The position numbers and the translations under genes were made by a program. 23,315 nt of DNA from positions 1-23,315 of the forward strand of contig DAHUZQ010000235.1 in NCBI GenBank assembly GCA_027306495.1. The letters run 5' to 3'. The DNA comes from Actinomycetota bacterium. GTDB lineage: Bacteria > Actinomycetota > Actinomycetes > Streptosporangiales > Streptosporangiaceae. The notes under the pieces are model-generated. The model was given only the letters and a program-made list of their open reading frames with translations. It did no database searches and was not told where the DNA came from. Positions 3,242 through 18,674 of this stretch are shown here, piece by piece (positions within the stretch are counted from its first letter, which is position 1; each line of letters opens with the position of its first letter).

Positions 3242-4186
3242 CTATTCCCTGGCCGCCCCGGGCCGGTGTATTCCGAGCGGTCGCGGCGGGGACGGTGCCA
3301 CCTCGAGGGCCTCATCCCGCAGCAGCAGGGCAACAGCGGTGTCATCGCCGCTGCCCGCCGCCGACGCGCACGCCGCGGCCCAGGCCGGCAACTGCGCGCG
3401 GACCCAGCCGATGCCCTGGTCACGGGCGAACCGCACCAGATCGGACCCCACCGGCTGCTGCCAGGGATCGGTTACCAGCGCGTTCCCGAATCCGTCGGTC
3501 GCCAGCAGGACGGCAGCGACGTCCTCGCGGGCCAGATCGAGCACGGCACACCGGAACGATCGCACCGCGTCCGGTTGGCACAGGCTGGTCGTCCGGCGCC
3601 CATCCAGCCGTTCATCCCCGGGAACGGGCGTCGAAGCCCTGCCCTGCCCGTCAACCACGACGATGTCACCATCGCCGATCTGGCAGAGTCCCAGCCAGGA
3701 GCCCACCACGGCCGCCAGCAGCAGGGTGGTCCCATACGCCACCGAACCGCTCTCACCGGGCCGCAACCACCCACGTTCGTCCTGATCGAGGGGGTGCTCG
3801 AGCAGGTCATCCTCGACAGCGAACCGCCAGGCGGCGATGATGGCCGGGATCACGGCACCGCCCAGGACATGCTCCACCTCGCCGGTGGCCCCGCCGGCCG
3901 CGAGGTCGGCGGACCGTTCGATCAGCGCCGATCCGGCGACGCGGACGGCGAACTGCGCGCCCGTGGCGCTGCGGCCGTGCCGTGGGTGCCCGTGCCCGTC
4001 AGCCACCGCCAGGGCCAGGAGGCCACCGGGGTGCCCCGGATCGCCGAAGCAGGCCACCACGTCCTGGATGGGCCGCCCGGCCGCTTCGTGAGCGGCGCCG
4101 CGGGCGGTGGCTGTCAGGGTCTGCCACCGCAGGGGAAGGGCACGGGGAGGTGCCCCGGAGTCAGACAATCGGGTCCTTCTCAGCAT
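3242..4186 (-). CDS. PP2C-family Ser/Thr protein phosphatase
   Basis: PP2C motifs are present: LAVADGHGH (metal-binding DGxGG-like), GTTLLLAAV, GDGDIVVV, LLATDGF and DDTAVALL. Stop is TAG at 3242-3244. The start is uncertain: ATG at 4186, or TTG at 4168 preceded by a GAGAAGGA RBS. Confidence 0.8.
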   Translation of the reverse strand: MLRRTRLSDSGAPPRALPLRWQTLTATARGAAHEAAGRPIQDVVACFGDPGHPGGLLALAVADGHGHPRHGRSATGAQFAVRVAGSALIERSADLAAGGATGEVEHVLGGAVIPAIIAAWRFAVEDDLLEHPLDQDERGWLRPGESGSVAYGTTLLLAAVVGSWLGLCQIGDGDIVVVDGQGRASTPVPGDERLDGRRTTSLCQPDAVRSFRCAVLDLAREDVAAVLLATDGFGNALVTDPWQQPVGSDLVRFARDQGIGWVRAQLPAWAAACASAAGSGDDTAVALLLRDEALEVAPSPPRPLGIHRPGAARE

Positions 4187-4463: not shown

Positions 4464-5669
4464 CTAGCCTGCGGCGCGATCCACGACGCGCCCTTTCCAG
4501 GCACCACCCCGCCCGCTGTGATGGCGGCGGGCGGAATCGACTGTCATGGCCGCATACAGGACGGCGACCAGCGGCAGCGTGGCCGCACGCAGCGGTGAGA
4601 GCCGGTACATCCGCAACACGGGAACATAGGTCGCGGTCATGAGCAGAGCGGCGGCCCAGCCAGCGGCAGCCGTCACTGCCGCGGCCACTGTCCCGTTCGC
4701 CAGCCAGGCGGCCAGGCCACCCACCGCGGCCACCGGCGGCACCAGGTAGATCCATGCCAGCCCGACCACCACCAGAGCCAGCAGCATCGGTGAATACCGG
4801 AGCTGGGTGTAGGCACTGCGGGCGATCATCTCCCACAGCGACCGCAGGGTCGGATACGGCCGCCGGCTCTCAAGATCCACCGAGAACCCGAGCCAGCACG
4901 GCGACCGCGCCGGAGAACGCTTGAGAAGCCGCGCGAGAGCGACATCATCGATCCGCGCACCGGAGATCATCTGCAGCCCGCCCGCAGCGGCCAGCGCGGA
5001 CCGGCGCACCAGCATGCAGCCGCCCGCCGCCGCGGCCGTGCGGCTGCGGGCGCGGCTCGCGCGCCGGAATGGATAGAGCTGGCCGAAAAAGTACACAAAG
5101 GCCGGCACGATCAACCGCTCCCAGCCGCTGTCGGCCCGCAGCAACACCATCTGCGACACCAGATCGAACGGGCCGCCCTCGGCCGCCCGTACCAGCGACC
5201 GCAGGGCGTCCGGCGACCAGCTGATGTCGGCGTCGGTGAACAGAAGGTAGTCGCTGCCGCCGGCCGCCGTGACGCCCTGCGCCATCGCCCAGACCTTGCC
5301 CGCCCAGCCGGCAGGAGGAGGACAACCTGCGATGACACGCAGCCGGGAGCCAGGGCCGGCCAGCGACGAAGCCACTTGTGCCGTCCCATCGGTGCTGGCG
5401 TCGTCGACCAGCACGACCCGCAGCCTGCCCGGATAGTCCTGCCTCAGCAGCGTCGGCAAGGTCTGCGGCAAGATCGCGGCCTCGTCGCGGGCAGGCACGA
5501 CCACGCTCACGCACGGCCAGGTCCCCGGTCCCGGACCTGGCCGTCGCGCGTCATCGCCTGCTGGGCAATCTGGCAGGCGATGATCCGCCCGCCAGTAGCC
5601 GCCGTGCCCCAGCAGCAGGTATCCCCAGGCGAGGGCGGCGAGCACCGTGACCGCAACGGCGACGATCAC
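4464..5669 (-). CDS. family-2 glycosyltransferase with N- and C-terminal TM segments; HpnB-like (hopanoid-associated glycosyltransferase) by architecture and context
   Basis: GT-A motifs are present: VSVVVPARDEA, LVDDASTDGT and a DAD-like TDADI. It has an N-terminal TM helix and 3-4 C-terminal TM helices. The GTG start has GAGG 6 nt upstream, only 8 bp after the flotillin stop. Membership of the HpnB family cannot be proven without an HMM search. Confidence 0.7.
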   Translation of the reverse strand: MIVAVAVTVLAALAWGYLLLGHGGYWRADHRLPDCPAGDDARRPGPGPGTWPCVSVVVPARDEAAILPQTLPTLLRQDYPGRLRVVLVDDASTDGTAQVASSLAGPGSRLRVIAGCPPPAGWAGKVWAMAQGVTAAGGSDYLLFTDADISWSPDALRSLVRAAEGGPFDLVSQMVLLRADSGWERLIVPAFVYFFGQLYPFRRASRARSRTAAAAGGCMLVRRSALAAAGGLQMISGARIDDVALARLLKRSPARSPCWLGFSVDLESRRPYPTLRSLWEMIARSAYTQLRYSPMLLALVVVGLAWIYLVPPVAAVGGLAAWLANGTVAAAVTAAAGWAAALLMTATYVPVLRMYRLSPLRAATLPLVAVLYAAMTVDSARRHHSGRGGAWKGRVVDRAAG

Positions 5670-5677
5670 GTGCTACC

Positions 5678-6856
5678 TCAGCCGGCCCCCTGGCCATCCG
5701 CCTGCCCATCGGGCTGACCGTCCGCCCCGCCGGCTGCGGGGAGCCCGGCGGACTGGCTGCCGGGCGCGCGGTCCAGTTCGCCGTTCACGCTCTTCCTCAC
5801 CGTGCTGAGGATCGACAAGCCCTGGCCAACGAGACTCGCGGCGATCTCACTCAGCCCATCGGCGCCGTTCAGCACGCTGACGTTGGCTCCTCCGAGGCCA
5901 GCGGCGGCTTCCTTGACGATCTGGGGAAGCTGGTTGATGAGCATCTGGTCGAGCGCGATCCGGTTGTTGGAGGCAGCCGCCTGCGCCTGGATCGTCACCC
6001 GCTCCGCCTCGGCTCTGGCCAGCACACGCACGCGTTCGGCTTCGGCTTCGGCCGGCTTGACCACCTCGGCCACGAGTTGGCGCTCGCGCAGTTCCGCCTG
6101 CTGACGGGCGAGTTCGGCCTGTGCCGCGATGACCTTGAGTTGCGCCTGCGCCTGGGAGAGCGGCCCGGCCTGGGCCGCCTCGGCCTGGGCCTTGTCGATC
6201 TGGGCCTTGTACTCGGCCTGCACGACCGCGGTCTGCCGGGCGTACTCGGCCTGCTTGCGCTGCGATTCCTGCTCGGCCTCGGCCGCCGCCTGGTTGGCCT
6301 GAGCCTGGGCGATCTGAGCCTGGCGGCGGATCGCCGCGTTGTGTGGCGCGGCCATCGAGTCGATATAGCCCGCGTTCATATCGTCGATCGACTGGATTTG
6401 CAGGGAGTCCACGGTCAGGCCGATCTTGACCATCTCCACCTTGGATCCGTCGAGGACCTCCGTCGCCAGTTTCTGGCGTTCGGTGACGATTTCCTCGACC
6501 GTCATGGATCCCACGATCGACCGCAGGTGGCCCGCGAAGATCCGCCCGGTCAGAGTTGACATCTGATCCTGATCGGACAGGAAACGCTGGCCCGCATTGA
6601 CGATGCTTTCCTCGTCGTTGCCAACCTTGAAAGCGATGACCGCTCGCACGTTGAGTGCAATACCCTGCCGGGTCACACAGGTCTCGGCGACTTCCGCCTC
6701 CTGCATTGACAAGGTCAGGTAACGAGCCTTGCGGAAGAAGGGGGCGACGAATGCGCCATGGCCGACCACCACCCGGAACGGCGCTCCACTGTGCCAGCGC
6801 CTGCCGCCGGCGACCAGCATGGCCTCGTCAGGCGCTGGGACACGGTATCCGAACAT
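5678..6856 (-). CDS. flotillin (SPFH/band-7 domain plus Ala/Glu/Gln-rich coiled-coil flotillin domain), FloT homologue lacking an N-terminal membrane hairpin
   Basis: GHLRSIVGSMTVEEI is identical to the FloT core motif. The N-terminal PDEAMLVAGG aligns to FloT GPDEALIVTG. A long EA/AQ-rich coiled-coil segment follows. A strong RBS (GGAACAGGAGCAGG) precedes the ATG. An in-frame upstream stop prevents any N-terminal extension. Confidence 0.85.
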   Translation of the reverse strand: MFGYRVPAPDEAMLVAGGRRWHSGAPFRVVVGHGAFVAPFFRKARYLTLSMQEAEVAETCVTRQGIALNVRAVIAFKVGNDEESIVNAGQRFLSDQDQMSTLTGRIFAGHLRSIVGSMTVEEIVTERQKLATEVLDGSKVEMVKIGLTVDSLQIQSIDDMNAGYIDSMAAPHNAAIRRQAQIAQAQANQAAAEAEQESQRKQAEYARQTAVVQAEYKAQIDKAQAEAAQAGPLSQAQAQLKVIAAQAELARQQAELRERQLVAEVVKPAEAEAERVRVLARAEAERVTIQAQAAASNNRIALDQMLINQLPQIVKEAAAGLGGANVSVLNGADGLSEIAASLVGQGLSILSTVRKSVNGELDRAPGSQSAGLPAAGGADGQPDGQADGQGAG

Positions 6857-6901
6857 GCTGCCTGCTCCTGTTCCTATGTCAGCGAGCCCGCCCGGGCGGA
6901 C

Positions 6902-7144
6902 TCAATAGTCCTCGTCCTGGAATGGGCGGAGTGGGTCATTCCATTCGCTGACATCAACCGTCCGTGTCCCCCGATCATTGATGACCAGGACAGAAGTACC
7001 CCGTTTCAGCGGCTGGGCCGACCAGGCAATAAGCGCTTCAGAGCCACCGCGGTAGGAGATCAGCACCTCTCCGGGACCGGACTGCCCCCGTGTCGCGACG
7101 ATGATCCGGCCGATACAGCCGACCACGGAACTGTCCTGAGCCAC
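6902..7144 (-). CDS. short NfeD-like OB-fold (beta-barrel) protein, the usual operon partner of flotillin
   Basis: 80 aa with a Gly/Val pattern (GEVLISYRGG...GTSVLVIN..GTRTVDV) typical of the NfeD C-terminal domain. GTG start with GAGGAG 8 nt upstream. An in-frame stop 4 codons upstream bounds the N-terminus. It sits directly 5' of the flotillin gene. Confidence 0.5.
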   Translation of the reverse strand: MAQDSSVVGCIGRIIVATRGQSGPGEVLISYRGGSEALIAWSAQPLKRGTSVLVINDRGTRTVDVSEWNDPLRPFQDEDY

Positions 7145-7280: not shown

Positions 7281-7320
7281 ATGCTGATGGCGCCCCGGTC
7301 AACCGGGGCGCCATCAGCAT
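7281..7320. repeat. perfect 18-bp inverted repeat with a 4-nt spacer (ATGCTGATGGCGCCCCGG-TCAA-CCGGGGCGCCATCAGCAT); hairpin or palindromic operator
   Basis: Exact reverse-complement arms read directly from the sequence. It lies in the 313-bp gap between the ribokinase stop (7458) and the NfeD start (7144). There is no adjacent U-tract on either strand. Confidence 0.9.
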
Positions 7321-7457
7321 GGGGCCGGTGTGTGGTCGCCTCCTCGGCGAGTGGCACAACGCGGCTCCAGCCGGACGGTATTCCGCGAAGGCAGTGATAT
7401 TGCGGCCCGGGGGACACATCACACCAGCACTGATCGATAACAGTGCCGGTAGCTGAG

Positions 7458-8486
7458 CTATTCCGGGCGGCCGCACGGTCCCGGCCACACCAGGCCGGTG
7501 GCCGCGAGCACTGCTTCGGCGTCAGGCATGGCAGCCTGGGCACCACGGACGGTGACCGCCGTCGCCGCCACCGCGCACGCGGCGCGGACGGCCCGTTCCG
7601 GCTCAATCCCAGCCCCCACGGCCACAGCGAGCGCCCCGCAGAATGCGTCGCCTGCCCCGACCGTGTCAACCGCCCTCACCGGGAACGCTGGCACCACCAC
7701 CGTCGGCACCGGGGCGGTGGGACGACCGCCGCGGGCCCGGGCTGCCTTCGGGGACTGAGCCGTGCCCGGCGCGGACTGAGCCGTGCCCGGCGCGGATGCC
7801 AGGACCGCGCCCATAGCACCGAGCGTGATCACCACATGCCCGGGCCCCCACCCGGCCAGCGTCGCCGCGGCCTGTTCGGCCTGGCTCAGCCCGTGTACGC
7901 CCGTCCCAAGCAAGGACGCCGCTTCGCGGGCGTTGACCACCAGCCACCGCGGCCGCGCGGCCAGCAGGTCCCGCCCGCCCGCCGGGACGGGCGCGAGGTT
8001 GAGCACGGCCGGGATTTCGTGCCGGTGCGCCGCCACGAGTGCCGCGGCGAGTGCGGCCACCCCGATCTCGGCGCTGAGCAGGATCACCTCGCACGGGTGA
8101 ACCAGTGCCGCGTTCACGTCCTGTTCGCCAAGCAGCGAATTGGCGCCTGGCGCCACCGTGATCGCGTTCTCCCCCGCTTCATCCACGCTGATCAGGGCGA
8201 GCCCGGTGACCGCGCCCTCAGCCACCCGCAGCCCACTGGTGTCCACCCCCCGCGATCGCAGGCCGCTGACCAGCGTGGCCGCGAACTCATCGGCACCCAC
8301 GCACCCGTGCAGGCGCACCCGCGCGCCCAGTCGGGCAGCCGCGACGGCCTGGTTCGCACCCTTGCCGCCGGGGCCGATCACGGCTCCCGAGCCCAGGACC
8401 GTCTCTCCGGGGCTGGGCAACCGCGGCACCCTCACGCAGATGTCGGTATTCAGGCTGCCGATCACGGTGATGGTGGGACCCGGCAT
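7458..8486 (-). CDS. rbsK: ribokinase (PfkB family carbohydrate kinase) with a low-complexity insertion
   Basis: N-terminal ITVIGSLNTD...PxxGET matches the ribokinase pattern. The GGKGANQAVAAARLG signature-1 and DTVGAGDAF signature-2 are present. ATG start with GAGGAGG 7 nt upstream. Confidence 0.75.
   Translation of the reverse strand: MPGPTITVIGSLNTDICVRVPRLPSPGETVLGSGAVIGPGGKGANQAVAAARLGARVRLHGCVGADEFAATLVSGLRSRGVDTSGLRVAEGAVTGLALISVDEAGENAITVAPGANSLLGEQDVNAALVHPCEVILLSAEIGVAALAAALVAAHRHEIPAVLNLAPVPAGGRDLLAARPRWLVVNAREAASLLGTGVHGLSQAEQAAATLAGWGPGHVVITLGAMGAVLASAPGTAQSAPGTAQSPKAARARGGRPTAPVPTVVVPAFPVRAVDTVGAGDAFCGALAVAVGAGIEPERAVRAACAVAATAVTVRGAQAAMPDAEAVLAATGLVWPGPCGRPE
7752..7793. repeat. 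perfect 21-bp tandem duplication (ggactgagccgtgcccggcgc x2) inside the ribokinase CDS, encoding SAPGTAQ-SAPGTAQ
   Basis: Two identical adjacent 21-bp units read from the sequence. It is in frame, and lies within an insertion of about 25 aa relative to canonical ribokinases, just before the DTVGAGD motif. Confidence 0.9.
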
Positions 8487-8601
8487 CGCTGCGCCTCCTC
8501 GGGCGACACCCCGGCCACGGGCTGGGCCCGCAGTCGGGGTGGACCAGCGGGTTCACGGTATCCCGGCCGGGCCGCGCACCGCGCACATCGGGTAGTGTTC
8601 A

Positions 8602-10632
8602 ATGATCGTTGCGATGGTTAGCCACACATCCGTCCGGACCCTGATCCTGGGTGTAACGGCCTCGGGGCGGCTAGTGGAGCATGACCGCACCGCCCCCGAA
8701 GTCATCGCCGCCCCGGACGGGCCGCTGCTTGGTGCGCAGTTCAGCGATGTGATCGCCGAACCGGCGCTGCCGGGGTCTGCGCTCGCGGGTGTGCTGGAGG
8801 CGATCTCAGCCGGACGGGAGGCTACCGCCGTCCTCGCCGTACGGACCCGCCGCGGCCACCCGGTCGAGGCCGTCGTGTCCGTGCAGCCCATGCGCAGCAG
8901 TGAATCCAAGGTCGCGGCGCTGATCATGCTACGGGTCCCACCACCGAGCGAAGAGCAGTTCATGGACCCGGCGGTCATCCGTTACGCACTGCTCAGCGAC
9001 ACCTTCCGGCATATCGGGACCACTTTGGACCTCGACCAGATGGCCCGGGGGCTGGTCAACATCCTGGTCCCGCATTTCTGCAACGCCGCCGGCCTGCTGG
9101 TGCTGGAAAGCCTCGCCGCGGCCGACGAGCCCACGCCGCGGGCAGAGGGCGACCATCTGCTGCGCCGGCTCGCGTTCGCCGGCGACCCCGGCGACGCGGC
9201 GTGGGAGGCGATGTTCCCGCTCGGCGAAACCGTGCGGCACGCACCCGGCAGCCCGCAGGCACTCTGCCTGCAAACAGGTAAGCCCATGCGGGAGTCGGAT
9301 GTCGGCATCGGCCACTCCTTCACACGCTCCCCGATGCACGGGCCGGCGACGCATCTGCTCGATCGTGCGTCCATGCTGGTGCTTCCCCTGATATCCGGCG
9401 ACAGCGTGCTGGGCGAGATCGTGTGCCTGCGCCGCTCGGGCCTGCGCGCCTTCGACTCCTATGACACAGAGATCGGCATGGAGTTCGCGAGCCGGGCCGC
9501 CATCTTCACCGAGAACGCGCGGCGCTACAACCGGGAACGGACCACGGCGATCATGTTGCAGCGCAGCCTGCTGCCGACCGGCCTGACGGTTCCCTCCTCC
9601 GTCCAGGTTGCCCACCGCTATCTGCCCGGCAGCCATCTCGTCGAGGTCGGCGGCGATTGGTATGAGTCGCTCACGCTGCCCGGGGCGCGGGCGGCCCTGG
9701 TGGTCGGGGATGTGGCAGGCCACGGGGTGGGTGCCGCCGTGACCATGGGCCGGCTGCGGACCGCCATCCAGACCCTCGCCATGCTGGAACTCCCGCCGTC
9801 GGAGTCGCTGCAGCAGCTCGACGAACTCATGCATGTGATCGGCGTCCGCGAACCGCACTTCGCCACCTGCGTCTACGCGACCTACGACGCGGTGAACGGC
9901 ACCTGCGAGATCGCGTCGGCGGGCCACCTCCCGCCCCTGCTCGTCAGCCCCGATGGGGCCGCCCGCTACCTTGACCTGCCCGCGGCACCACCGCTGGGCG
10001 TGGGTGAAGGCCCCATCCGCAGCACGGCCCTCACCGTAGAGGACGGGAGCCTGCTGATCCTCTACACCGACGGCCTGGTGGAGAGCCGCACCGCCGACAT
10101 CGATGTGGGCCTGGAACGGCTGCGGGCGGCGTTCGCCGCCGGTGTGGCGGACCTGACGGTAGAGGAACTCTGCACGGCCGCCCTGGCCAGTGCCTATGCC
10201 GAGGAGCAGCGTGACGATATCGCCGTGCTGATCGCGCGGTTGCGCCGGATCGACCCTGGGCAGCACGTCTCCTGGGATCTGCCGGGGGAGGTCACAACCG
10301 CCGGCCGGGCGCGGGCGCTGGTCGGCGAGCCGCTGGCGCGGTGGGACCTGGCGGCCATGCTGCCGCTCACCCAGTTGCTCGTATCCGAACTGGTGACCAA
10401 CGCGATCCGCTACACCAGCGGCCCGGTGATGGTGCGTCTCATCAACGAGGGCTCGCTGGTGTGCGAGGTGTACGACAACTCACCGGCATTGCCCAGGCTC
10501 CGGCATGCGGCCCGCGACGATGAATGCGGCCGCGGGCTGGAGATCGTCAGCCAGATGTCGGACCGGTGGGGCGCGCGGCGCACTCCTTCGGGCAAAGTCG
10601 TCTGGTGCGAGCAGAAGCTCCCCAATCGCTGA
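8602..10632 (+). CDS. multidomain signalling protein: N-terminal sensor region + GAF + PP2C/SpoIIE phosphatase + C-terminal RsbW/SpoIIAB-like HATPase_c kinase domain
   Basis: GAF-like region spans about aa 130-300. SpoIIE/PP2C motifs are present: ERTTAIMLQRSLLP, GGDWYE, GDVAGHGVGAA and LLILYTDGLVE. The C-terminal part carries ELVTNAIRY...GRGLEIV, the N-box/G-box of anti-sigma-factor-type kinases. ATG at 8602; an alternative start is the ATG at 8614. Confidence 0.8.
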   Translation: MIVAMVSHTSVRTLILGVTASGRLVEHDRTAPEVIAAPDGPLLGAQFSDVIAEPALPGSALAGVLEAISAGREATAVLAVRTRRGHPVEAVVSVQPMRSSESKVAALIMLRVPPPSEEQFMDPAVIRYALLSDTFRHIGTTLDLDQMARGLVNILVPHFCNAAGLLVLESLAAADEPTPRAEGDHLLRRLAFAGDPGDAAWEAMFPLGETVRHAPGSPQALCLQTGKPMRESDVGIGHSFTRSPMHGPATHLLDRASMLVLPLISGDSVLGEIVCLRRSGLRAFDSYDTEIGMEFASRAAIFTENARRYNRERTTAIMLQRSLLPTGLTVPSSVQVAHRYLPGSHLVEVGGDWYESLTLPGARAALVVGDVAGHGVGAAVTMGRLRTAIQTLAMLELPPSESLQQLDELMHVIGVREPHFATCVYATYDAVNGTCEIASAGHLPPLLVSPDGAARYLDLPAAPPLGVGEGPIRSTALTVEDGSLLILYTDGLVESRTADIDVGLERLRAAFAAGVADLTVEELCTAALASAYAEEQRDDIAVLIARLRRIDPGQHVSWDLPGEVTTAGRARALVGEPLARWDLAAMLPLTQLLVSELVTNAIRYTSGPVMVRLINEGSLVCEVYDNSPALPRLRHAARDDECGRGLEIVSQMSDRWGARRTPSGKVVWCEQKLPNR

Positions 10633-10660
10633 CCAGGTCCAGCGGTCAGGACGCCGGCGT

Positions 10661-11662
10661 TCAGCCACGCAGCGCGCGCAGTGACTGCCGCAGTGAGCCC
10701 ATGGTGGCGAGCACCGCGGACGGCTCGTAGCCGCAGTGCGCCATGCAGTTCGCGCACCGGGGGTCCCTGCCCCGGCCGTAGGCTTCCCAGTCGGTGGTCT
10801 CGATGAGCTCGGCGTACGTGCGGGCGTAGCCGTCGGCCATCAGGTAGCAGGGCCGCTGCCAGCCGAGCAGCGAGTAGGACGGGATACCCCAGGCGGTGCA
10901 GCCGAAGTCGGTCTTGCCCTCCAGGAAGTCCAGGAACAGCGGTGAGTGGTTCAGCCGCCAGCGCCGCCGGTTACCGCCTGCGAACGCCTTGCGGAACAGT
11001 TCCCGGGTCTCACCGACACCCAGGAAGTGCTCCTGGTCGGGCGCCTTCTCGTAGGCATAGGCCGGGGAGATCTGCATCTGGTCGATGCCCAGGTCGTCGT
11101 TGAGGTAGCTCAGCACGTCGATCACGGTCTGCGCAGTGTCGGTGTTGAAGAAGGTGGTGTTGGTGTTGACCTTGAACCCGCGCGCCTTGAGTTGGCGCAC
11201 CGCTGCCACAGCTTCGTCGAAGACGCCCTCCTTGCAGACTGATTCGTCGTGGCGGTCCCGCAGGCCGTCGATGTGCACGACCCACGCGAAGTAGGGCGAC
11301 GGGGCGAACTTGTCGATCTTCTTGCTGACGAGCAGCGCGTTGGTGCACAGGAACACGAACTTCTTGCGGGCGATGAGCCCGCGCACGATCTGGTCTATCT
11401 GCGGGTGCATCAGCGGCTCGCCGCCGGCGATCGACACCATCGGCGCCCCGCACTCCTCGATCGCCGCGATCGCCTGCTCGACCGGCATCCGTTGCTTCAG
11501 GATGTCGTGCGGATGGGCGATCTTGCCGCACCCTGCGCACTTCAGGTTGCACGCGAACAGCGGCTCCAGTTCCACCAGCAGCGGGAACTTCTGCCTTCCG
11601 GCCAGCTTCTGGCGCAGCAGATATGACCCGATCGCGAGGCTCTGGCGCAGTGGCATGCTCAT
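10661..11662 (-). CDS. hpnH: adenosylhopane synthase HpnH (radical SAM, hopanoid side-chain formation)
   Basis: CNLKCAGC radical-SAM cluster motif (CxxxCxxC) near the N-terminus. C-terminal Cys cluster (CANCMAHCGYEP) typical of HpnH. Located in the hopanoid operon. Confidence 0.9.
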   Translation of the reverse strand: MSMPLRQSLAIGSYLLRQKLAGRQKFPLLVELEPLFACNLKCAGCGKIAHPHDILKQRMPVEQAIAAIEECGAPMVSIAGGEPLMHPQIDQIVRGLIARKKFVFLCTNALLVSKKIDKFAPSPYFAWVVHIDGLRDRHDESVCKEGVFDEAVAAVRQLKARGFKVNTNTTFFNTDTAQTVIDVLSYLNDDLGIDQMQISPAYAYEKAPDQEHFLGVGETRELFRKAFAGGNRRRWRLNHSPLFLDFLEGKTDFGCTAWGIPSYSLLGWQRPCYLMADGYARTYAELIETTDWEAYGRGRDPRCANCMAHCGYEPSAVLATMGSLRQSLRALRG

Positions 11663-13209
11663 CAGGACCTGACCTCCCTCGGCAGGCTGAATCGGATGTT
11701 CTCAGTGGTGATCACACGCTCGCTGACCCGCACCGGGCCGAGCCCGCCGAGCGCGTCGATGATCTCTGCGACCACCGAAGGCGGGGCGGACGCCCCAGCC
11801 GTCAGCCCCACCGTCCTCACCCCGGCCAGCCAGCTCAGCGCGATGTCGGCGGGCCCGTCGATCAGGTGCGCCCGAACCCCCGTGCGCTCGGCGGTCTCCA
11901 CCAGCCGGACCGAATTGGAGGAGTTCGCCGACCCGGCCACCAGCACCAGGTCCGAGGCGGCCGCGACCGCCCGGACCGCGTGCTGACGGTTGGTCGTCGC
12001 GTAGCAGATGTCGTCGCTGCCCGGCGCGCGGGCAGCCGGGAAGCGCTCCAGCAGCGCCCGGGCGACCTCAGCCGCCTCGTCCGTGGACAGGGTCGTCTGC
12101 ATGAGGTAGGCGACCTTGCCCTCGTCGGCGGGGCGCAGCCGGGCCACATCCTCGACGGTTTCCACCAGCGCCATCGCCGCGGGCGCCTCGCCGAGTGTCC
12201 CCTCGACCTCTTCGTGCCCGGCGTGACCGATCAGGGCCACCAGGTAGCCTTCGGCGGCGAACCGCCGGGCCTCGGCATGGACCTTGGACACTAGCGGGCA
12301 GGTGGCGTCCACCGCCGTAAGCCCGCGCCCGGCGGCCTCCTCCCGCACCGCCGGTGAAACCCCGTGTGCGGAGAACACCACCCGGGCCCCGTCCGGCACC
12401 TGCGACAGTTCGTCGACGAATACCGCGCCCCGCCGCTCCAGGCCGGCCACCACGTGGGTGTTGTGCACGATCTGCTTGCGCACGTAGACCGGTGGCCCAT
12501 GCTGGGCAAGCACGCGTTCCACGATCTCGACAGCACGCTCCACCCCCGCGCAGAACGACCTCGGGCCGGCCAGCAGCACTTCCCGCGGGCCGGCGGCGGC
12601 GGCCCACCTGGCGAGCACCGGCCCGGCCGCGCGCAGCGAGCGCAGTGCCGCGGTGCCGCCGCGGATCAGCGCCGGGGAGAGCAGCGGCTGGCCCGCCGTA
12701 TCCGATACCGCCCGGATCACCGCCAGCGGCCGGTCACCCGCGGCCGCCGCCAGGTCGAACGATTCGCGGTCGGCCACCAGCGCTCCCCAGCCAGCCAGCC
12801 GTTCCCGCTGATGGCCGCGCACAAGGCGGTCCACGGTCACCACCCGCCCCGCCCGGGCGCGCAGGCCCGCCCGCCGTAGCTCGCCGGCCAGCAGGGGAGC
12901 GGCCGGGCACGCGATCATGGCACGGCCGTCGGTCACCTCGTTCCCTACCACACTGTCGCCGGGGACCAGGTCCGCGGCAAGCCCTCCGCTGGTCCCCGCG
13001 ACCGCCAGCATCCGGAAATCCTCGCGGGTGAGCCGTGCCGCCCGGCTGCGCGCCCGGGCCCGGCCATAGCCGGTGACCAGCACCCGCCCGCCGTTCCCGA
13101 GTCCACCCCGGACAGCCCGCGCCTCCGGCCACAGCGGGGCACAGACCACCAGTGCCGGACCGGGTGGCCCAGGATCGGCCGGCGCCGCCCGCTGGGGTGG
13201 CCCGGTCAT
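11662..13209 (-). CDS. ispH: fusion protein: N-terminal HpnG-like purine nucleosidase (PNP/MTA-nucleosidase fold) + C-terminal IspH/LytB (4-hydroxy-3-methylbut-2-enyl diphosphate reductase)
   Basis: N-terminal part has [14 protein letters not shown] (catalytic Glu region) and [11 protein letters not shown] (SDxA motif), as in MTA/adenosylhopane nucleosidases. From about aa 205 ([23 protein letters not shown]) to the end is a full-length IspH, with the conserved Cys at AVDATCPLV and a third Cys near ICYATTNRQ. The ATG overlaps the shc stop (ATGA). Confidence 0.8.
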
Positions 13210-15140
13210 GGTGTCACCGCCAGATACCGGCCGAGTGCGCTCACCGGGAACACCAGCCGGTAGAGGTGGTAGTTCAGGTAGAAGTCACCGGGGAACCCAG
13301 TCCCGGTGAACTGCGGTTCGTCCCAGCCGCCGTCACCGCGCTGGTGCTCGGCCAGCCAGCCGATGCCGCGCTCCACAGCGGGGCCGGTTTCCGGTACGGC
13401 GAGCAGGGCCAGCAGCGCCCAGGCCGTCTGGGAGGCGGTGGAGACGCCGCGCCCAGCCAGCGACCTCTCATCGTAGGAACGCAGATCCTCGCCCCACCCG
13501 CCGTCGGAGTTCTGGTGCTCCTCCAGCCAGGCGACCGCCCGCCGGATGGCCGGCTTGGAGGCCGGGACGCCGGCCGCGATCAGCGCGGGGACCACGGCGC
13601 CGGTGCCATAGATGTAGTTGGCGCCCCAGCGGCCGAACCATGATCCGTCGGCTTCCTGTGCCCGCAGCAGCCAGACGACTCCACGCCGGGCGGCCGGGCT
13701 GCGGGCCAGGCCCTCGGCGGCCAGTGCCTCGACCACATGGGCGGTCACATCGGCCGACGGCGGGTCGGTCACAGCCCCGAAGTCGCAGAACGGCAGCTTG
13801 CCCACCAGGGTGGAGGTGTTGTCGGCGTCGAACGCTGCCCACCCTCCGTCCCGGCTCGCCATGGCGGTCATCCACCGCATGCCACGCTCGATGGCGGCCA
13901 GGCGGCCAGCGTCCGCGCCGTCCGTGCGGGCCCGCCGCAGCGCCAGCACTACCTCGGCGGTGTCATCGATGTCGGGATAGTTGTCGTTGTCGAACTCGAA
14001 CGCCCAGCCCCCGGGCGCCGCGCGCGGCCTGCGGACCCGCCAGTCGCCCGGGCCGGCGATCTCCTCGGCGAGCAGCCACCCGGCGGCCGCCCTGATCGCG
14101 GGGTGGTCCGGGGGCAGCCCGGCGTCGGCCAGGGCGGTGACCGCCAGCGCCGTGTCCCACACCGGTGACTGGCACGCCTCCAGGCGGCGTACCGGGCCCT
14201 CGGGCGAGTCCTCGACGATGGTGAACCTCTCCAGCCCGGCCAGCGCCCGCCGCATCACCGGGTGGCTGTTGCCGTACCCGAGCAGATGCAGTGCGATGAG
14301 CGAGTACACCCAGGGTGGCTGGATCCCGCCCCAGCAGCCGTCCCGTTCCTGGCGGGCCAGGATCCAGTCCGCGCAGCGGCGCAGCGCTGCCCGCCGGGCG
14401 GCGGTGGCGGGAGCGGCCCGGCCCACGTACCGCTCCCAGGTGTGCAGGGCCCGGTCCAGCTTGCCGAATGCCGCAGCCCACCCCCGGGAGTCCGGCGCCG
14501 TGGCCCGGCGGCGCCCGGCCGGGCCGCCCACCCGCAGTTCGGCCACCGTGAACGGCAGCGACCGCACCGGCCGCAACGCGGAGACGACCGTGAGCGGGAC
14601 GATGGTCTGACGTGCCCAGCATCCCCAGTCATAAATGTTGAAGGGCGCCCACGAGGGCAGGTAGATCAGTTCGGGGGGCATCACCGGCAGGTCGTCCCAC
14701 GACCATTCGCCGAACAGTGCGAGCCAGATCCGGGTGAACACGCGGGTGGCGTTGATGCCGCCCTGTTCGCGGATCCACGCCGCGGCCAGCCGCAGCGGCT
14801 CCTCCCGGGGGGAGTGCCCGGCCAGTCGCAGCGCGATGTATGCCTCCACCGTCGTGGACAGGTCGCCGGGGCCGCCGAAGAAGTTTGCCCACGTGCCGTC
14901 CTGGCGCTGCTGTGAGGCGATCCACCGGGCGGATGCCAGCGTCTGCTCCGCCGTCCGCACCCCGAGGAATTCGCGCATCAGCAGATCCTCGGCGTCCATG
15001 GTGACGTTCGTCTCCAGCTCGCCTTTCCACCAGCCCTGCCCCTGCTGCAGGCCGAGCAGGTGATCGACCGCCCGCCGCAGGGCGGCCCGGGCCGCGGGGG
15101 TGGCAGCGGGCTGGCTGGGGCGCGGCGCGGTCACGGTCAT
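13206..15140 (-). CDS. shc: squalene-hopene cyclase
   Basis: Multiple QW repeats ([45 protein letters not shown]) and the catalytic DIDDTAEV (DxDDTA) motif. The track ORF starts at a GTG at 15314, giving a 58-aa Arg/Pro-rich extension that overlaps the upstream gene. The ATG at about 15140 is preceded by GGAGGTG 8 nt upstream and leaves a 34-bp gap, so it is the preferred start. Confidence 0.9.
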
Positions 15141-15174
15141 GGGTGCGGGCACCTCCGTCTCGGCACGGCCGCGC

Positions 15175-16230
15175 TCACCACTGCCGGGCCGTGATGAACT
15201 CGGCGATGCTGGCGAACTCCGCCCGGACCTCGTCCGGCATCGGCGCCTGCGCCAGGCAGGCGTGCGCGGCGGCAAGCTGGGCGGCGGCCTCCTGCTCGGT
15301 CCAGCTCTTGCCACCTGCCTCCTCGACCAGCCGGGCGGCCCGCGCCAGCTCCGGTTCGCTCAGCGCCGCGCTGTCGCGCAGGAGGTCCGCCAGAGCGGCG
15401 GCGGGGGCGGTGCCGGCCTGCAGGGCTGCCACCACAGGCAGGGACTTCTTGCGCGCGCGCAGGTCCGAGCGGACGGGCTTGCCGGTCACCTCTGGCGCGC
15501 CCCAGATCCCGAGCAGGTCATCGGTGAGCTGGAAGGCCAGGCCCACATGCGCGCCGAACCCGGCCAGGCCCATCGCCAGCTCCGGGGATGCCCCCACGTG
15601 GATGGCGCCGATGCTGCACGCGCAGGCCATGAGCGCGGCCGTCTTGTCCCCGGCCATGGCCAGGCACTCGGCGAGCGGGACGTCCTCCCGCTGCTCGAAT
15701 GCCAGGTCCGCGCCCTGACCCGCGATCAGCCGCTGGACCGCCACCGACAGGCATCTGGCGGCCCACAGGCCCTGCGGTGCGGTGTCCTCGAGCAGCAGGT
15801 CCTGGGCGAGTGCGAGCAGCGCGTCGCCGGCCAGGATGGCCGCGCCCACCCCGAAAACAGTCCATGCGGTGGGCCGGTGCCGGCGCTCGGTGTCGCCGTC
15901 CATGATGTCGTCGTGCAGCAGCGAGAAGTTGTGCACCAGTTCCACCGCTACCGCGGCGGGAATCCCCTGCTCCGGGACGGCGTGGGCGGCACGGGCCGAG
16001 AGCAGGGTGAGTGCGGGCCGCAGCGCTTTGCCCCCGGACTTGCCACGGCCAGCAGCCGCGCCCGGATGCCGGCCGGCCCGGGCCGGAACGGTGGACTCGC
16101 TCCAGCCGTCGCCGCCGGCGAGCCCGAGGTGATAGACCGCCACCTTGCGCACGTCTGGGCTGAGCCGCGCCACCGCCGCTCCCAGTGCGGGACCGACCAG
16201 GTCACGGGCGTACTCAACGCCGGCCGGCAT
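15175..16230 (-). CDS. polyprenyl diphosphate synthase (FPP/GGPP synthase family) of the hopanoid operon
   Basis: First Asp-rich motif LLHDDIMD (DDxxD) and second Asp-rich motif LTDDLLG. The track ORF begins 89 codons upstream (16497) in an Arg-rich overlap with hpnE. The ATG at 16228-16230 (MPAGVEYARDL...) lies 8 bp after the hpnE stop. Confidence 0.8.
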   Translation of the reverse strand: MPAGVEYARDLVGPALGAAVARLSPDVRKVAVYHLGLAGGDGWSESTVPARAGRHPGAAAGRGKSGGKALRPALTLLSARAAHAVPEQGIPAAVAVELVHNFSLLHDDIMDGDTERRHRPTAWTVFGVGAAILAGDALLALAQDLLLEDTAPQGLWAARCLSVAVQRLIAGQGADLAFEQREDVPLAECLAMAGDKTAALMACACSIGAIHVGASPELAMGLAGFGAHVGLAFQLTDDLLGIWGAPEVTGKPVRSDLRARKKSLPVVAALQAGTAPAAALADLLRDSAALSEPELARAARLVEEAGGKSWTEQEAAAQLAAAHACLAQAPMPDEVRAEFASIAEFITARQW

Positions 16231-16238
16231 GACGGCGG

Positions 16239-17759
16239 TCACGCGCTCACCCCCGCCGGGCCGGGATCGGACAGCGGCAGGCCCTGCCTGCCGCCGGGCC
16301 TGGCGGGCGGTGGGACGGTCCAGTCCCCAGCGGGCCCGGCCGGGCCAGCCGCAAGGTCCGAGCGCACCTGGCGCGTCGCCATCAGTCCGCTGCGCACTGC
16401 TCCCTCCATCGTGTCCGGCCATCCGGTTTCGGTCCACGCTCCAGCCAGCACCAGCCCGGGCAGCGCTGTCGCCGACCCGGGGCGCAGCACGCCACACCCG
16501 GGACCCTGGCGGATCGTCGCCCGGCGCTCCCTGGTCACGAAGAAATCCAGCACCCGGGCCTGGCGCGCGGCGGGGAACAGCTCAGCAAGAGCGGGGATGA
16601 ACCGCTCCTCGAACGCGGCAGCGGGTGCGTCGACACAAGCGTCCGCGGCCGACAGCGACACCGCCAGGTACTGACCTGACGCAAGCCCGGCCGTCCCGCT
16701 CCGGTCGAACACCCACTGGACCGGTGAGTCCACCGCCGCGGCGAACGGCAGGCGGGTCACGCGCCGGTCATAGACCACATGAACGTTGACGATCGGCGAT
16801 TCCCCGAGGCCGGCCCACTGCGCCGGGCCGGGACCGTGCGTCACCGCACCCGGCGGAACCAGGCCGGCGGCCATCTTCGGCGGCACCGCCAGCACCCCGG
16901 CGTCGGCATCGATCCGCGGGCCGGCGGCCCGCGCGGGCCCGGCACCGCCCGCGGGCTCGCGCAGCCGGATACTGAACCCTCCGGCCCTGGCCGGCTCGAT
17001 CGCGCTCACCTTGGCGCAAAGCCGGACCGTCGCCCCGAGGCGGGCCAGCAGAGCGGCGGCGGCCCGCCCGTGCAGATCCCCCAACGGCACCGTGGGGACG
17101 CCGATGTCCGCCGCGTCCGCCCGGCCCAGCAGGGCTGTCCGCACGACGGTGGCCGCCAGGGCAAGGTCGGCGCCGTCCCCGGCCATGTTGAGGGTGGAGA
17201 CGGTGAACAGATCCCATAGCACCCGCCTGGTCCGCTCATCCTGGCCGTGGGCGGCGAGCCATTCTCCCAGGCTGGCCGCGCCGCCGGGCTTCGGGGAGGA
17301 GCCACGGGCAGTGGCCAGACCGGCGTCCGCCCGGCCCGCCGGCGCGAGCCTGGCCAGCGCGGCCGCGGCGGGGAACACCCGCAACCGCTGGGCCGGCGTC
17401 AGGAACCGGTAACCAGCCAGGGCGCGGCCCATATGCAGCGGCCCCGGCAGCCCGTCGCGCCACAGCCGGGCGCGGTCCCGCGGCGCGAGGACCGTCACGT
17501 CGAACCGGTCCTGCAGGGCGACCGAGCCGCTCATGCCGAGCCGGGCAAGCAACGTCCGGTAGGCATGGCAACAGCGCAGGAATATGTGCTGCCCATTGTC
17601 GACGCTCAGGCCCCCGCGCGAGAACGACGTTGTCGCTCCGCCGAGCCGTGGCCTGGCCTCCAGCAGGGTCACCCGCGCACCCGTCTCCGAAAGCGCGATG
17701 GCAGCGGTGATGCCAGCCAGCCCACCGCCCACCACGGCGACGTGACGCTGCGGCCTCAC
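16239..17759 (-). CDS. hpnE: HpnE, FAD-dependent hydroxysqualene dehydroxylase (amine-oxidase/phytoene-desaturase family)
   Basis: Rossmann FAD motif VAVVGGGLAGITAAIALSETGARVTLLE. The track ORF (start 18266) carries about 170 aa of Arg/Gly-rich artefact that overlaps hpnD. The preferred start is GTG at 17757-17759, which overlaps the hpnD TGA (GTGA). Confidence 0.8.
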   Translation of the reverse strand: MRPQRHVAVVGGGLAGITAAIALSETGARVTLLEARPRLGGATTSFSRGGLSVDNGQHIFLRCCHAYRTLLARLGMSGSVALQDRFDVTVLAPRDRARLWRDGLPGPLHMGRALAGYRFLTPAQRLRVFPAAAALARLAPAGRADAGLATARGSSPKPGGAASLGEWLAAHGQDERTRRVLWDLFTVSTLNMAGDGADLALAATVVRTALLGRADAADIGVPTVPLGDLHGRAAAALLARLGATVRLCAKVSAIEPARAGGFSIRLREPAGGAGPARAAGPRIDADAGVLAVPPKMAAGLVPPGAVTHGPGPAQWAGLGESPIVNVHVVYDRRVTRLPFAAAVDSPVQWVFDRSGTAGLASGQYLAVSLSAADACVDAPAAAFEERFIPALAELFPAARQARVLDFFVTRERRATIRQGPGCGVLRPGSATALPGLVLAGAWTETGWPDTMEGAVRSGLMATRQVRSDLAAGPAGPAGDWTVPPPARPGGRQGLPLSDPGPAGVSA

Positions 17760-18670: not shown

Positions 18671-18674
18671 CGCT

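What the first reader, a model, noticed from the sequence alone, without database searches (positions are those of the whole stretch)
8602..10632. GAF-PP2C-HATPase_c protein convergent on hpnH; three PP2C phosphatases in 23 kb framing the hopanoid locus
Seen in sequence:
- The window contains a cytoplasmic PP2C (3242-4186), a GAF + SpoIIE/PP2C + RsbW-like kinase fusion (8602-10632) that ends 28 bp from the hpnH stop, and a membrane SpoIIE/PP2C (20033-21127) directly upstream of the hopanoid operon leader.
Established knowledge:
- PP2C plus anti-sigma-type kinase domains form partner-switching modules (RsbU/RsbW, SpoIIE/SpoIIAB) that control sigma factors during stress and differentiation.
- Hopanoid production in actinomycetes is developmentally regulated.
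Inference:
- This unusual density of phosphatase signalling genes around the hpn operon suggests phospho-relay control of hopanoid, flotillin and membrane remodelling.
- No STAS-domain antagonist is present in the window.
Basis: partly seen in the sequence, partly recalled or inferred. Interest (0 to 1): 0.5.

Follow-up and report, generated by a model that had tools for sequence, protein, structure and literature searches.

The report
Sensor phosphatase beside hopanoid genes
The gene encodes an ordinary member of a very large actinomycete family of stress-signalling proteins (a sensor fused to a phosphatase and an anti-sigma-type domain). It has kept its place between hopanoid-lipid and flotillin genes in about fifty related soil species, but nothing shows that it controls them.

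Summary
ORF 8602-10632 (+) encodes a 676-aa soluble protein with four domains: PAS-like, GAF, SpoIIE/RsbU-type PP2C and RsbW/RsbA-type HATPase_c_2. It stops 28 bp from the hpnH stop codon. The other two PP2C genes are real, and no STAS gene was found in the window.

The closest solved relative is M. tuberculosis Rv1364c (RsbU and RsbW domains). The PP2C metal motifs and the kinase N-box are invariant in 50 orthologues. The kinase G1 box is degenerate (DxSxxxP, not DxGxG).

Gene order is conserved in an uncultured Streptosporangiaceae-like soil clade. In 50 of 80 species loci the gene lies between nfeD-like/flotillin/hpnB and hpnH. It is always convergent with hpnH, and 42 of the 50 have 2-8 kb of other genes inserted between them.

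- The membrane SpoIIE gene pairs mainly with an Eis-like acetyltransferase gene.
- The PP2C_2 gene is syntenic only in the 94 %-identical relative.
- A sister clade and one contig keep the regulator without hpn genes.
- A conserved GGGTA(T/C/G) box lies before the regulator but not before hpnC or the flotillin operon.

Verdict: a new member of a known kind. Control of hopanoid genes is possible but not shown.

The parts
8602..10632 (+). Target gene: 676-aa soluble PAS-like / GAF / SpoIIE-type PP2C / HATPase_c_2 fusion protein
   Evidence: ORF and codon composition; Pfam; 120 listed homologues at 61-94 % identity with the same Pfam set; AlphaFold2 model
8635..8937 (+). N-terminal PAS-like sensor domain (residues 12-112)
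   Evidence: Pfam PAS is sub-threshold (E 0.005). AlphaFold2 gives a beta-beta-helices-beta-beta-beta fold with pLDDT 77-91. Foldseek single-PAS match 8pky, TMt 0.69, rmsd 4.0. This is the least conserved part of the protein (50 % mean identity)
8968..9516 (+). GAF domain (about residues 123-305)
   Evidence: Pfam GAF E 4.1e-6, above the gathering score; low-confidence AlphaFold2 region; PAS-GAF bidomain matches to phytochromes in domain order only
9457..9570 (+). Long helix (residues 286-323) joining GAF to PP2C; candidate signalling linker
   Evidence: AlphaFold2 helix 286-321/323. The linker segment 306-345, which overlaps the C-terminal half of this helix, is the most conserved segment of the protein (78 %). 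Coiled-coil linker control of PPM phosphatases is described in PMC12143880
9601..10242 (+). SpoIIE/RsbU-type PP2C phosphatase domain (residues 334-547)
   Evidence: Pfam SpoIIE E 3.5e-51. The motifs GGDWY, GDVAGHG, YTDG and RDDIA are invariant in 50 orthologues. Best PDB matches are Rv1364c 3KE6, RssB, SpoIIE and RsbX
10264..10617 (+). RsbW/RsbA-type GHKL (HATPase_c_2) domain (residues 555-672)
   Evidence: Pfam HATPase_c_2 at 38.4 bits, above the cut-off of 27.4. NCBIfam RsbA_anti_sig gives a partial match (39 bits, cut-off 210). N-box E596 and N600 are invariant. The G1 position reads D625-N-S627-P-A...P631, with D, S and P invariant in place of DxGxG. G2-like E641-x-G-R-G-L is invariant.
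8590..8598 (+). Conserved box GGGTAGTGT, 3 nt upstream of the ATG. It is either a SigB-family -10 (GGGTAG) or a TAnnnT -10
   Evidence: [GA]GGTA[CTG] sits at the same position (-12/-13) in the window and in 38 of the 40 closest species loci, while the flanks diverge. GGGTAT, GGGTAC and GGGTAG are the -10 regions of mapped S. coelicolor SigB-family promoters (PMC8346170). No convincing -35 was found
10633..10660 (.). 28-bp spacer between the convergent stop codons of the target and hpnH
   Evidence: Sequence; no intrinsic terminator found; fold z-score 0.04
10661..19637 (-). Hopanoid operon: hpnC, hpnD, hpnE, polyprenyl synthase, shc, HpnG-like/IspH fusion, hpnH
   Evidence: Pfam. NCBIfam HpnH, HpnE, HpnD, HpnC and hopene cyclase all score above their cut-offs
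4464..7144 (-). nfeD-like small ORF (6902-7144), flotillin (5678-6856) and HpnB glycosyltransferase (4464-5669)
   Evidence: Band_7/Flot Pfam; HpnB TIGR03469 at 456 bits, above the cut-off of 379; the 80-aa ORF is conserved in 39 loci; flotillin lies upstream of the target in 51 of 80 loci
7458..8486 (-). Ribokinase-like PfkB gene, divergent from the target across a 115-bp intergenic region
   Evidence: Pfam PfkB; TIGR02152 at 253 bits, below the cut-off of 300; present upstream of the target in 39 of 80 loci
20033..21127 (-). Membrane-anchored SpoIIE-type PP2C upstream of hpnC
   Evidence: Pfam SpoIIE E 1e-25; hydrophobic segments at residues 34-120; 80 metagenome loci
21334..22620 (+). Eis-like GNAT acetyltransferase, divergent partner of the membrane SpoIIE gene
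   Evidence: Pfam; NCBIfam NF002367 at 473 bits; paired with the SpoIIE gene in 45 of 49 loci that have enough flank
3242..4186 (-). Soluble PP2C_2 (eukaryotic-like Ser/Thr phosphatase type), next to an FHA-PrsW gene (1683-3122)
   Evidence: Pfam. No homologue in 2.18 Mb of related loci. Present only in the 94 %-identical relative L082

Best explanation
The gene encodes a soluble, single-polypeptide partner-switching regulator from the very large actinomycete RsbU/RsbW-type family.

Shown here:
- The domain order is PAS-like, GAF, long helix, PP2C, GHKL (HATPase_c_2).
- The PP2C catalytic motifs are intact.
- The GHKL domain keeps its N-box and G2-like box but has a degenerate G1 box.

Inferred mechanism:
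- An unknown cytoplasmic signal bound by the PAS/GAF pair is passed through the conserved helical linker and switches the PP2C domain on or off.
- The active phosphatase removes the phosphate from a STAS-type anti-sigma antagonist encoded elsewhere in the genome.
- The C-terminal RsbW/RsbA-like domain binds that same antagonist, may re-phosphorylate it, or sequesters a SigB/SigF-like sigma factor.
- The one protein would therefore set the activity of a stress or development sigma factor.
- The conserved GGGTA(T/C/G) box just upstream suggests that such a sigma factor also transcribes this gene.

Its place between the flotillin/hpnB operon and the hpn operon is ancestral gene order in this clade. 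That makes membrane-lipid genes candidate targets, but no sequence evidence ties its output to them.
For: - Domains and boundaries.
- The nearest solved structure is the RsbU plus RsbW part of Rv1364c (phmmer E 2e-29; Foldseek E 5.5e-19).
- Rv1364c phosphorylates and dephosphorylates its own STAS domain and binds SigF (PMC7693655).
- OsaC, which has the same four domain types, binds SigB through its kinase domain (PMC10117811).
- Catalytic motif conservation in 50 orthologues.
- The linker segment 306-345 is the most conserved segment. Linker-mediated control is proposed as general for PAS/GAF-PPM phosphatases, including OsaC and Rv1364c (PMC12143880).
- The family is huge: 7270 of 8000 scored candidates were significant. 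S. coelicolor alone has 44 PP2C, 45 RsbW, 17 RsbV and 9 SigB homologues (PMC8346170).
- The GGGTA box is conserved in 38 of the 40 closest loci and matches SigB-family -10 regions.
- Synteny.
Against: - No STAS or sigma gene lies in the window or in the 10-kb flanks of 80 relatives, so the partners are hypothetical.
- The G1 box is not DxGxG, so kinase activity is doubtful.
- The conserved box is equally compatible with an ordinary TAnnnT -10. No -35 was found, and the start codon is unclear in several orthologues.
- The AlphaFold2 models have only moderate confidence (pLDDT 68-70).
- No ligand can be proposed for the PAS/GAF pair.
Confidence: 0.6

Rival explanations
1. One reading: the fusion protein, together with the membrane SpoIIE phosphatase and the PP2C_2, is a dedicated signalling system. 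It would sense membrane or lipid state and control expression of the hpn operon and the flotillin/hpnB operon.
For: - The gene is flanked on both sides by hopanoid-associated genes: hpnB (TIGR03469, above cut-off) and hpnH.
- This position is kept in 50 of 80 species loci, in clades on both sides of the NJ tree, despite repeated insertions and deletions nearby.
- The membrane SpoIIE gene lies upstream of hpnC in 21 of 34 loci with at least 3 kb of flank.
Against: - The gene is convergent with hpnH and never co-transcribed with it. In 42 of 50 loci it is 1.9-8.2 kb away.
- PP2C_2 is absent from all 80 species loci.
- A 15-species sister clade has the gene beside LmeA-like, UbiE-type methyltransferase and glmS genes instead.
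- Contig L149 has both SpoIIE-type genes about 7.5 kb apart, with conservon-like genes and no hpn genes between them.
- There is no shared promoter box.
- No paper found links PP2C or partner switching to hopanoid loci.
- Gene order among relatives of this divergence is often conserved without any functional coupling.
Confidence: 0.2
2. Phosphatase with a pseudo-kinase domain: the C-terminal GHKL domain no longer binds ATP. It serves only as a docking or auto-inhibitory module, or as a plain anti-sigma binder. The protein would then act as a sensor phosphatase only.
For: - The G1 box reads D-N-S-P-A, with S627 and P631 invariant in 50 orthologues, where DevS has D-N-G-R-G.
- Only 18 residues separate the G1 Asp from the G2 Gly, which suggests a short ATP lid.
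- The NCBIfam RsbA match is partial and far below its cut-off.
Against: - N-box Glu and Asn, the G1 Asp and the GRG motif are all invariant, which would be unnecessary in a pure docking module.
- The kinase domain of Rv1364c is reported as active on its STAS domain (PMC7693655).
Confidence: 0.3
3. The three PP2C genes act in series as one phospho-relay.
For: Co-location in 23 kb in the window and in the 94 %-identical relative.
Against: - They belong to different classes: a PP2C_2 paired with an FHA protein, a SpoIIE-type PP2C fused to GHKL, and a membrane SpoIIE-type PP2C.
- They lie in three separate transcription units.
- Only two are positionally conserved, and those two are independently separable from the hpn genes.
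- Phosphatases do not pass phosphate on to one another.
Confidence: 0.03

Closest known systems
Mycobacterium tuberculosis Rv1364c (PDB 3KE6 covers its RsbU and RsbW domains)
   Same: A sensor domain followed by a PP2C and then an RsbW-type GHKL domain in one polypeptide and in the same order. It is the best sequence and fold match in the PDB. It belongs to SigF partner switching.
   Different: Rv1364c also carries a C-terminal STAS (RsbV-like) domain, which is its own substrate; the protein here ends after the GHKL domain. Rv1364c has a single PAS sensor; here the sensor is PAS-like plus GAF. Identity is only about 25 % in the Foldseek alignment.
Streptomyces coelicolor OsaC
   Same: The same four domain types (RsbW-like kinase, PAS, GAF, PP2C). 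It is an actinomycete protein and modulates a SigB-type sigma factor through its kinase domain.
   Different: The domain order differs: the kinase domain is N-terminal in OsaC and C-terminal here. OsaC sits in the osaABC osmoadaptation locus, not beside lipid genes. No direct sequence comparison was run here.
Bacillus subtilis RsbU/RsbP with RsbW and RsbV; Clostridioides difficile RsbZ (GAF-GAF-PP2C)
   Same: PPM phosphatases with N-terminal sensor domains joined by a helical linker. They dephosphorylate a STAS antagonist to release a SigB-type sigma factor.
   Different: In those systems the phosphatase and the anti-sigma kinase are separate proteins, encoded in one operon with the STAS and sigma genes. 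Here they are fused, and the partner genes are not nearby.
Control of hopanoid methylase hpnP by EcfG (PhyR-NepR-EcfG partner switch) in Rhodopseudomonas palustris (from memory, not checked here)
   Same: A precedent for a partner-switching stress pathway that controls a hopanoid gene.
   Different: An unrelated protein family (ECF sigma with PhyR/NepR) in an alphaproteobacterium. The link there was shown by genetics, not by gene position.

Membership tests
SpoIIE/RsbU-type PPM (PP2C) phosphatases | Profile match above the curated threshold | tested here: met
   Pfam PF07228 at 174 bits against a cut-off of 25, covering positions 2-191 of the 192-position model
SpoIIE/RsbU-type PPM (PP2C) phosphatases | Metal-binding Asp motifs (GGDxY, GDVxGHG, YTDG, DD at the C-terminus) present | tested here: met
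   EVGGDWYE, GDVAGHG, YTDGLVE and RDDIA are invariant in 50 orthologues
SpoIIE/RsbU-type PPM (PP2C) phosphatases | Mn/Mg-dependent phospho-Ser/Thr phosphatase activity | not testable with these tools
   Needs an enzyme assay
RsbW/SpoIIAB-type anti-sigma serine kinases (HATPase_c_2) | Profile match above the curated threshold | tested here: met
   PF13581 at 38.4 bits against a cut-off of 27.4. The NCBIfam RsbA_anti_sig model reaches only 39 bits against 210 and covers only its C-terminal third
RsbW/SpoIIAB-type anti-sigma serine kinases (HATPase_c_2) | N-box (ExxxN) for Mg-ATP | tested here: met
   SELVTNA, with E596 and N600 invariant
RsbW/SpoIIAB-type anti-sigma serine kinases (HATPase_c_2) | G1 box DxGxG | tested here: not met
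   The sequence is D625-N-S-P-A. D625, S627 and P631 are invariant in 50 orthologues. It aligns to DNGRG of DevS
RsbW/SpoIIAB-type anti-sigma serine kinases (HATPase_c_2) | Binds a sigma factor and/or phosphorylates a STAS protein | not testable with these tools
   Needs interaction and kinase assays
Rv1364c-type all-in-one regulators | Sensor, PP2C, GHKL kinase and STAS all in one polypeptide | tested here: not met
   No STAS domain in the protein, nor in the precomputed Pfam lists of the 120 best homologues, including the longer ones
OsaC-type regulators | Domain order kinase, PAS, GAF, PP2C | tested here: not met
   The order here is PAS-like, GAF, PP2C, kinase
Complete partner-switching module (phosphatase, kinase/anti-sigma, STAS antagonist, sigma factor) | STAS antagonist and cognate sigma factor encoded with the phosphatase/kinase | tested here: not met
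   None in the window and none among the conserved gene clusters in the 10-kb flanks of 80 relatives. The rest of the genome could not be searched
Hopanoid (hpn) gene cluster | Conserved co-location with shc/hpn genes | tested here: met
   hpnH lies within 10 kb in 50 of 80 species loci and flotillin in 51 of 80. This holds within one clade only
Hopanoid (hpn) gene cluster | Same transcription unit, or a shared regulatory motif, with hpn genes | tested here: not met
   Convergent orientation in all 50 loci. The GGGTA box is absent from hpnC and flotillin upstream regions
Hopanoid (hpn) gene cluster | Co-occurrence with hpn genes in other hopanoid-producing lineages | not tested
A sister clade and L149 already show the gene without adjacent hpn genes

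The most novel reading that the evidence does not exclude
The PAS/GAF-PP2C-GHKL protein and the membrane SpoIIE phosphatase are the input arms of a lineage-specific membrane-homeostasis circuit. In this reading they sense a hopanoid or isoprenoid intermediate, or the state of flotillin microdomains, and set the activity of a SigB-like sigma factor. That sigma factor would tune the hpn, hpnB/flotillin and neighbouring envelope (ABC, GT-C) genes. This would be the first partner-switching control of hopanoid synthesis in Actinomycetes.
Probability: 0.12. Interest if true: 0.6.

Novelty: new member of a known kind. Interest (0 to 1): 0.3.

Why it matters
The regulation of hopanoid synthesis in Actinomycetes is poorly understood, and the papers searched here name no dedicated regulator. 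A sensor phosphatase that has stayed wedged between the hopanoid operon and a flotillin/hpnB operon in about fifty species is a reasonable first candidate to test by knockout. As it stands, the gene is one more copy of a family present in dozens of copies per actinomycete genome. The value of this work is mainly in bounding the claim: two of the three phosphatase genes are positionally conserved and one is not, and there is no sequence-level sign of shared regulation.

Tried and rejected
- A search for STAS genes with B. subtilis RsbV and SpoIIAA against six-frame translations of the window and of 162 loci found nothing even at E 10.
- I searched for a shared SigB-type box upstream of hpnC (36 loci; 22 full intergenic regions) and upstream of the nfeD-like/flotillin operon (39 loci). 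There is no positionally conserved GGGTA box. The flotillin operon instead has its own conserved TAGTGT/TAGGGT box followed by GAGGAG.
- No intrinsic terminator or stable structure lies in the 28-bp convergent spacer (z-score 0.04).
- Rfam found only tRNA-Gly at 40-111.
- I looked for extra PP2C genes in 2.18 Mb of related loci to estimate a background density. None were found beyond the two defining genes. These loci are the same neighbourhood repeated across species, so this is not a genome-wide density.
- The idea of a leaderless mRNA starting at the ATG is inconsistent across orthologues. Several have no canonical start at that codon, others have a GTG two codons upstream, and the start codon remains unresolved.
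- The phytochrome-like reading of the PAS-GAF pair is rejected. The matches have rmsd of about 20 Å and reflect domain order only, so there is no basis for bilin binding.
- Literature searches for any link between PP2C or partner switching and hopanoid or flotillin loci found none.
Full report
**1. What is there**

The window is high-GC (67-76 %) actinomycete DNA. ORF 8602-10632 (+) has coding-type codon composition, with GC3 of 0.86.

Its 676-aa product gives these Pfam hits:
- SpoIIE-type PP2C, residues 361-547, E 3.5e-51.
- HATPase_c_2, residues 568-668, 38.4 bits against a cut-off of 27.4.
- GAF, residues 143-301, 27.8 bits against 22.4.
- PAS, residues 11-110, E 0.005, below threshold.

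Two AlphaFold2 models were built from 50 orthologues, one of the full length and one of residues 1-326 (pLDDT 68 and 70). Both give the same layout:
- A confident PAS-type fold at residues 12-112.
- A less confident GAF domain up to about residue 305.
- A long helix at 286-323.
- The PP2C domain, then a compact alpha/beta GHKL domain at 555-672.

Foldseek matches the sensor half to PAS-GAF bidomains in domain order only (rmsd about 20 Å) and to single PAS/LOV domains (TMt 0.69). It matches the catalytic half best to the RsbU plus RsbW fragment of M. tuberculosis Rv1364c (3KE6, E 5.5e-19). Rv1364c is also the best sequence hit in the PDB (E 2e-29).

The stop codon lies 28 bp from the hpnH stop on the other strand. 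There is no terminator-like structure in the spacer.

PP2C_2 is at 3242-4186 (-). A SpoIIE-type gene with about three N-terminal hydrophobic segments is at 20033-21127 (-).

**2. Gene map**

All of the following are on the minus strand unless marked:
- tRNA-Gly 40-113 (+).
- Methyltransferase 895-1683.
- FHA-PrsW 1683-3122.
- PP2C_2 3242-4186.
- HpnB glycosyltransferase 4464-5669 (TIGR03469, 456 bits, above the cut-off of 379).
- Flotillin 5678-6856.
- A conserved 80-aa ORF 6902-7144.
- Ribokinase-like PfkB 7458-8486.
- The target 8602-10632 (+).
- hpnH, an HpnG-like/IspH fusion, shc, polyprenyl synthase, hpnE, hpnD and hpnC, together 10661-19637.
- Membrane SpoIIE 20033-21127.
- Eis-like GNAT 21334-22620 (+).

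The target is therefore flanked on both sides by hopanoid-associated genes.

No STAS or sigma-factor gene was found in the window.

**3. State of the catalytic sites**

The analysis used 50 orthologues at 61-94 % identity.
- The PP2C motifs GGDWY, GDVAGHG, YTDG and RDDIA are invariant.
- In the GHKL domain the N-box (E596, N600) and a G2-like ExGRGL are invariant.
- The G1 box reads D625-N-S627-P-A-L-P631, with D, S and P invariant. It is not DxGxG.
- It aligns to DNGRG of the DevS ATP-binding domain.

The phosphatase therefore looks competent. The kinase function is uncertain.

Conservation is highest in the linker segment (78 %) and the PP2C domain (72 %), and lowest in the PAS-like domain (50 %).

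**4. Relatives and synteny**

Database searches placed the gene as follows.
- The protein search returned thousands of homologues. The 120 best share the same Pfam set, none has a STAS domain, and several are named after Streptosporangiaceae MAGs.
- The genome scan gave 80 loci, one per species, at 55-67 % identity. Almost all are from uncultured soil Actinomycetes or Streptosporangiaceae MAGs.

tblastn with the window's proteins gave these results:
- hpnH lies downstream and convergent in 50 of 80 loci.
- Flotillin lies upstream in 51 of 80.
- PfkB lies upstream in 39 of 80.

The distance from the target to hpnH varies:
- 32-139 bp in only 6 loci. These lie within one sub-clade of the NJ tree, next to the branch holding the window.
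- 450-570 bp in 2 loci.
- 1.9-8.2 kb in 42 loci.

The inserted genes are on the hpnH strand. They are a MacB/FtsX-type ABC pair and one to three PMT_2-type GT-C glycosyltransferases.

Fifteen loci form one clade in an NJ tree and have none of these neighbours. There the gene follows LmeA-like, UbiE-type methyltransferase and membrane-protein genes and precedes glmS. Outside that clade, 50 of 55 evaluable loci keep hpnH within 10 kb.

The 94 %-identical relative (L082) has exactly the window's order, including both other phosphatases.

**5. The other two phosphatases**

PP2C_2, FHA-PrsW and the methyltransferase have no homologue in any of the 80 species loci, nor in 2.18 Mb of related DNA. They are a recent, lineage-specific addition.

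For the membrane SpoIIE gene, 80 metagenome loci at 61-77 % identity show:
- The divergent Eis-like GNAT partner in 45 of 49 loci with enough flank.
- hpnC downstream in 21 of 34 loci with at least 3 kb of flank, and in 7 of 12 with at least 9 kb. The gaps range from 0.55 to 5.7 kb.
- Several long contigs carry response-regulator and pilus-type genes there instead.
- Contig L149 has the membrane SpoIIE gene and a target-like gene convergent about 7.5 kb apart. Conservon-like genes, and no hpn genes, lie between them.

**6. Promoter-level test**

A box [GA]GGTA[CTG] sits 12-13 nt before the first aligned codon in the window (GGGTAG, 8590-8595) and in 38 of the 40 closest loci. The surrounding sequence diverges.

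GGGTAT, GGGTAC and GGGTAG are the -10 regions of mapped S. coelicolor SigB-family promoters (PMC8346170). This fits the common autoregulation of partner-switch genes.

The box also contains a TAnnnT hexamer. No -35 could be assigned, and the start codon is unclear in several orthologues. The reading is therefore tentative.

No such box is positionally conserved upstream of hpnC. The nfeD-like/flotillin operon has its own conserved TAGTGT/TAGGGT box. There is thus no sequence sign that the three units share a sigma factor.

**7. Mechanism**

*Shown:* the domain architecture, intact PP2C motifs, a partly degenerate GHKL domain, a conserved helical linker, and the absence of a fused or neighbouring STAS gene.

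*From the literature:*
- Rv1364c phosphorylates and dephosphorylates its own STAS domain and binds SigF (PMC7693655).
- OsaC binds SigB through its kinase domain (PMC10117811).

*Inferred:* the PAS/GAF pair senses a cytoplasmic signal and the linker gates the PP2C domain. The PP2C domain dephosphorylates a STAS antagonist encoded elsewhere. The GHKL domain binds or re-phosphorylates that antagonist, or holds a SigB-like sigma factor.

The regulon is unknown. The hpn and flotillin/hpnB operons are candidates by position only.

**8. Comparison with known systems, and novelty**

The architecture is the Rv1364c type without STAS, or the OsaC set of domains in another order. It fails membership of both on a defining feature, but it most likely works like them.

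S. coelicolor alone has 44 PP2C, 45 RsbW, 17 RsbV and 9 SigB homologues. One more member is therefore ordinary.

The papers searched describe no PP2C or partner-switching link to hopanoid or flotillin loci. The conserved position is the only new element.

Verdict: a new member of a known kind, of modest interest.

Noticed in passing
window 4464-7144 (-): An apparent operon of a conserved 80-aa ORF (nfeD-like by position only; no Pfam or NCBIfam hit), flotillin, and a GT2 that scores as HpnB (TIGR03469, 456 bits, above the cut-off of 379). A flotillin gene is thus physically tied to a hopanoid-associated glycosyltransferase. The arrangement is conserved upstream of the target in about 50 species loci.
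   Followed up: partly
window 11662-13209 (-): A single ORF fuses an HpnG-like nucleoside phosphorylase domain (residues 20-176; PNP_UDP_1; TIGR03468 at 55 bits, below cut-off) to a full IspH/LytB (residues 206-514). Full-length matches occur in 48 related loci.
   Followed up: partly
window 7458-8486 (-): A ribokinase-like PfkB gene (TIGR02152 at 253 bits, just below the cut-off of 300) lies divergent from the target and close to the ribosylhopane genes hpnH and hpnG. It is present in 39 of 80 loci. A role in hopanoid side-chain chemistry or ribose salvage is conceivable but untested.
   Followed up: no
L001-L080, between the target and hpnH (e.g. L017 12106-16000): Most relatives carry a MacB/FtsX-type ABC transporter pair (the permease has long Gly-rich inserts) and one to three PMT_2-type GT-C glycosyltransferases downstream of hpnH on the same strand. 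These genes are missing from the window.
   Followed up: partly
window 7145-7457 and the corresponding regions of 39 loci: A conserved TAGTGT/TAGGGT box is followed about 25-30 nt later by GAGGAG upstream of the nfeD-like ORF. This is a likely promoter and ribosome-binding site for the flotillin/hpnB operon.
   Followed up: partly
window 20033-22620; L083-L162: The membrane SpoIIE phosphatase and an Eis-like GNAT/SCP2 acetyltransferase form a divergent pair with a 150-490 bp intergenic region in 45 of 49 loci. This association is tighter than the one with the hpn operon.
   Followed up: partly
L149 2512-7254: Conservon-like genes (a small GTPase-like protein, a roadblock-size protein and a 1093-aa membrane sensor; judged from size and N-terminal sequence only) occupy the place of the hpn operon between the membrane SpoIIE gene and a target-like gene.
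   Followed up: no
window 15175-16497 (-): The best NCBIfam hit for the polyprenyl synthase of the hpn operon is 'family 2 encapsulin nanocompartment cargo protein polyprenyl transferase' (398 bits, below the cut-off of 450). The longest ORF also overlaps shc by 140 bp, so the true starts of several hpn genes are shorter than the longest ORFs.
   Followed up: no
window 1683-4186 (-): An FHA-PrsW (intramembrane protease-like) fusion gene lies directly downstream of the PP2C_2 gene. The pair is present only here and in the 94 % relative, and looks like a recently acquired Ser/Thr-signalling cassette.
   Followed up: partly
window 40-113 (+): tRNA-Gly (anticodon TCC) at the left edge of the window. 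The far-left flank differs from the 94 % relative, which has TetR and MFS genes there.
   Followed up: no
L042, L046, L050, L054, L055, L062-L065, L067, L069, L070, L074, L075, L079: A sister clade of target homologues (55-59 % identity) lies directly after LmeA-like (phospholipid-binding), UbiE-type methyltransferase and membrane-protein genes on the same strand, and before glmS. This is another envelope-related neighbourhood.
   Followed up: partly
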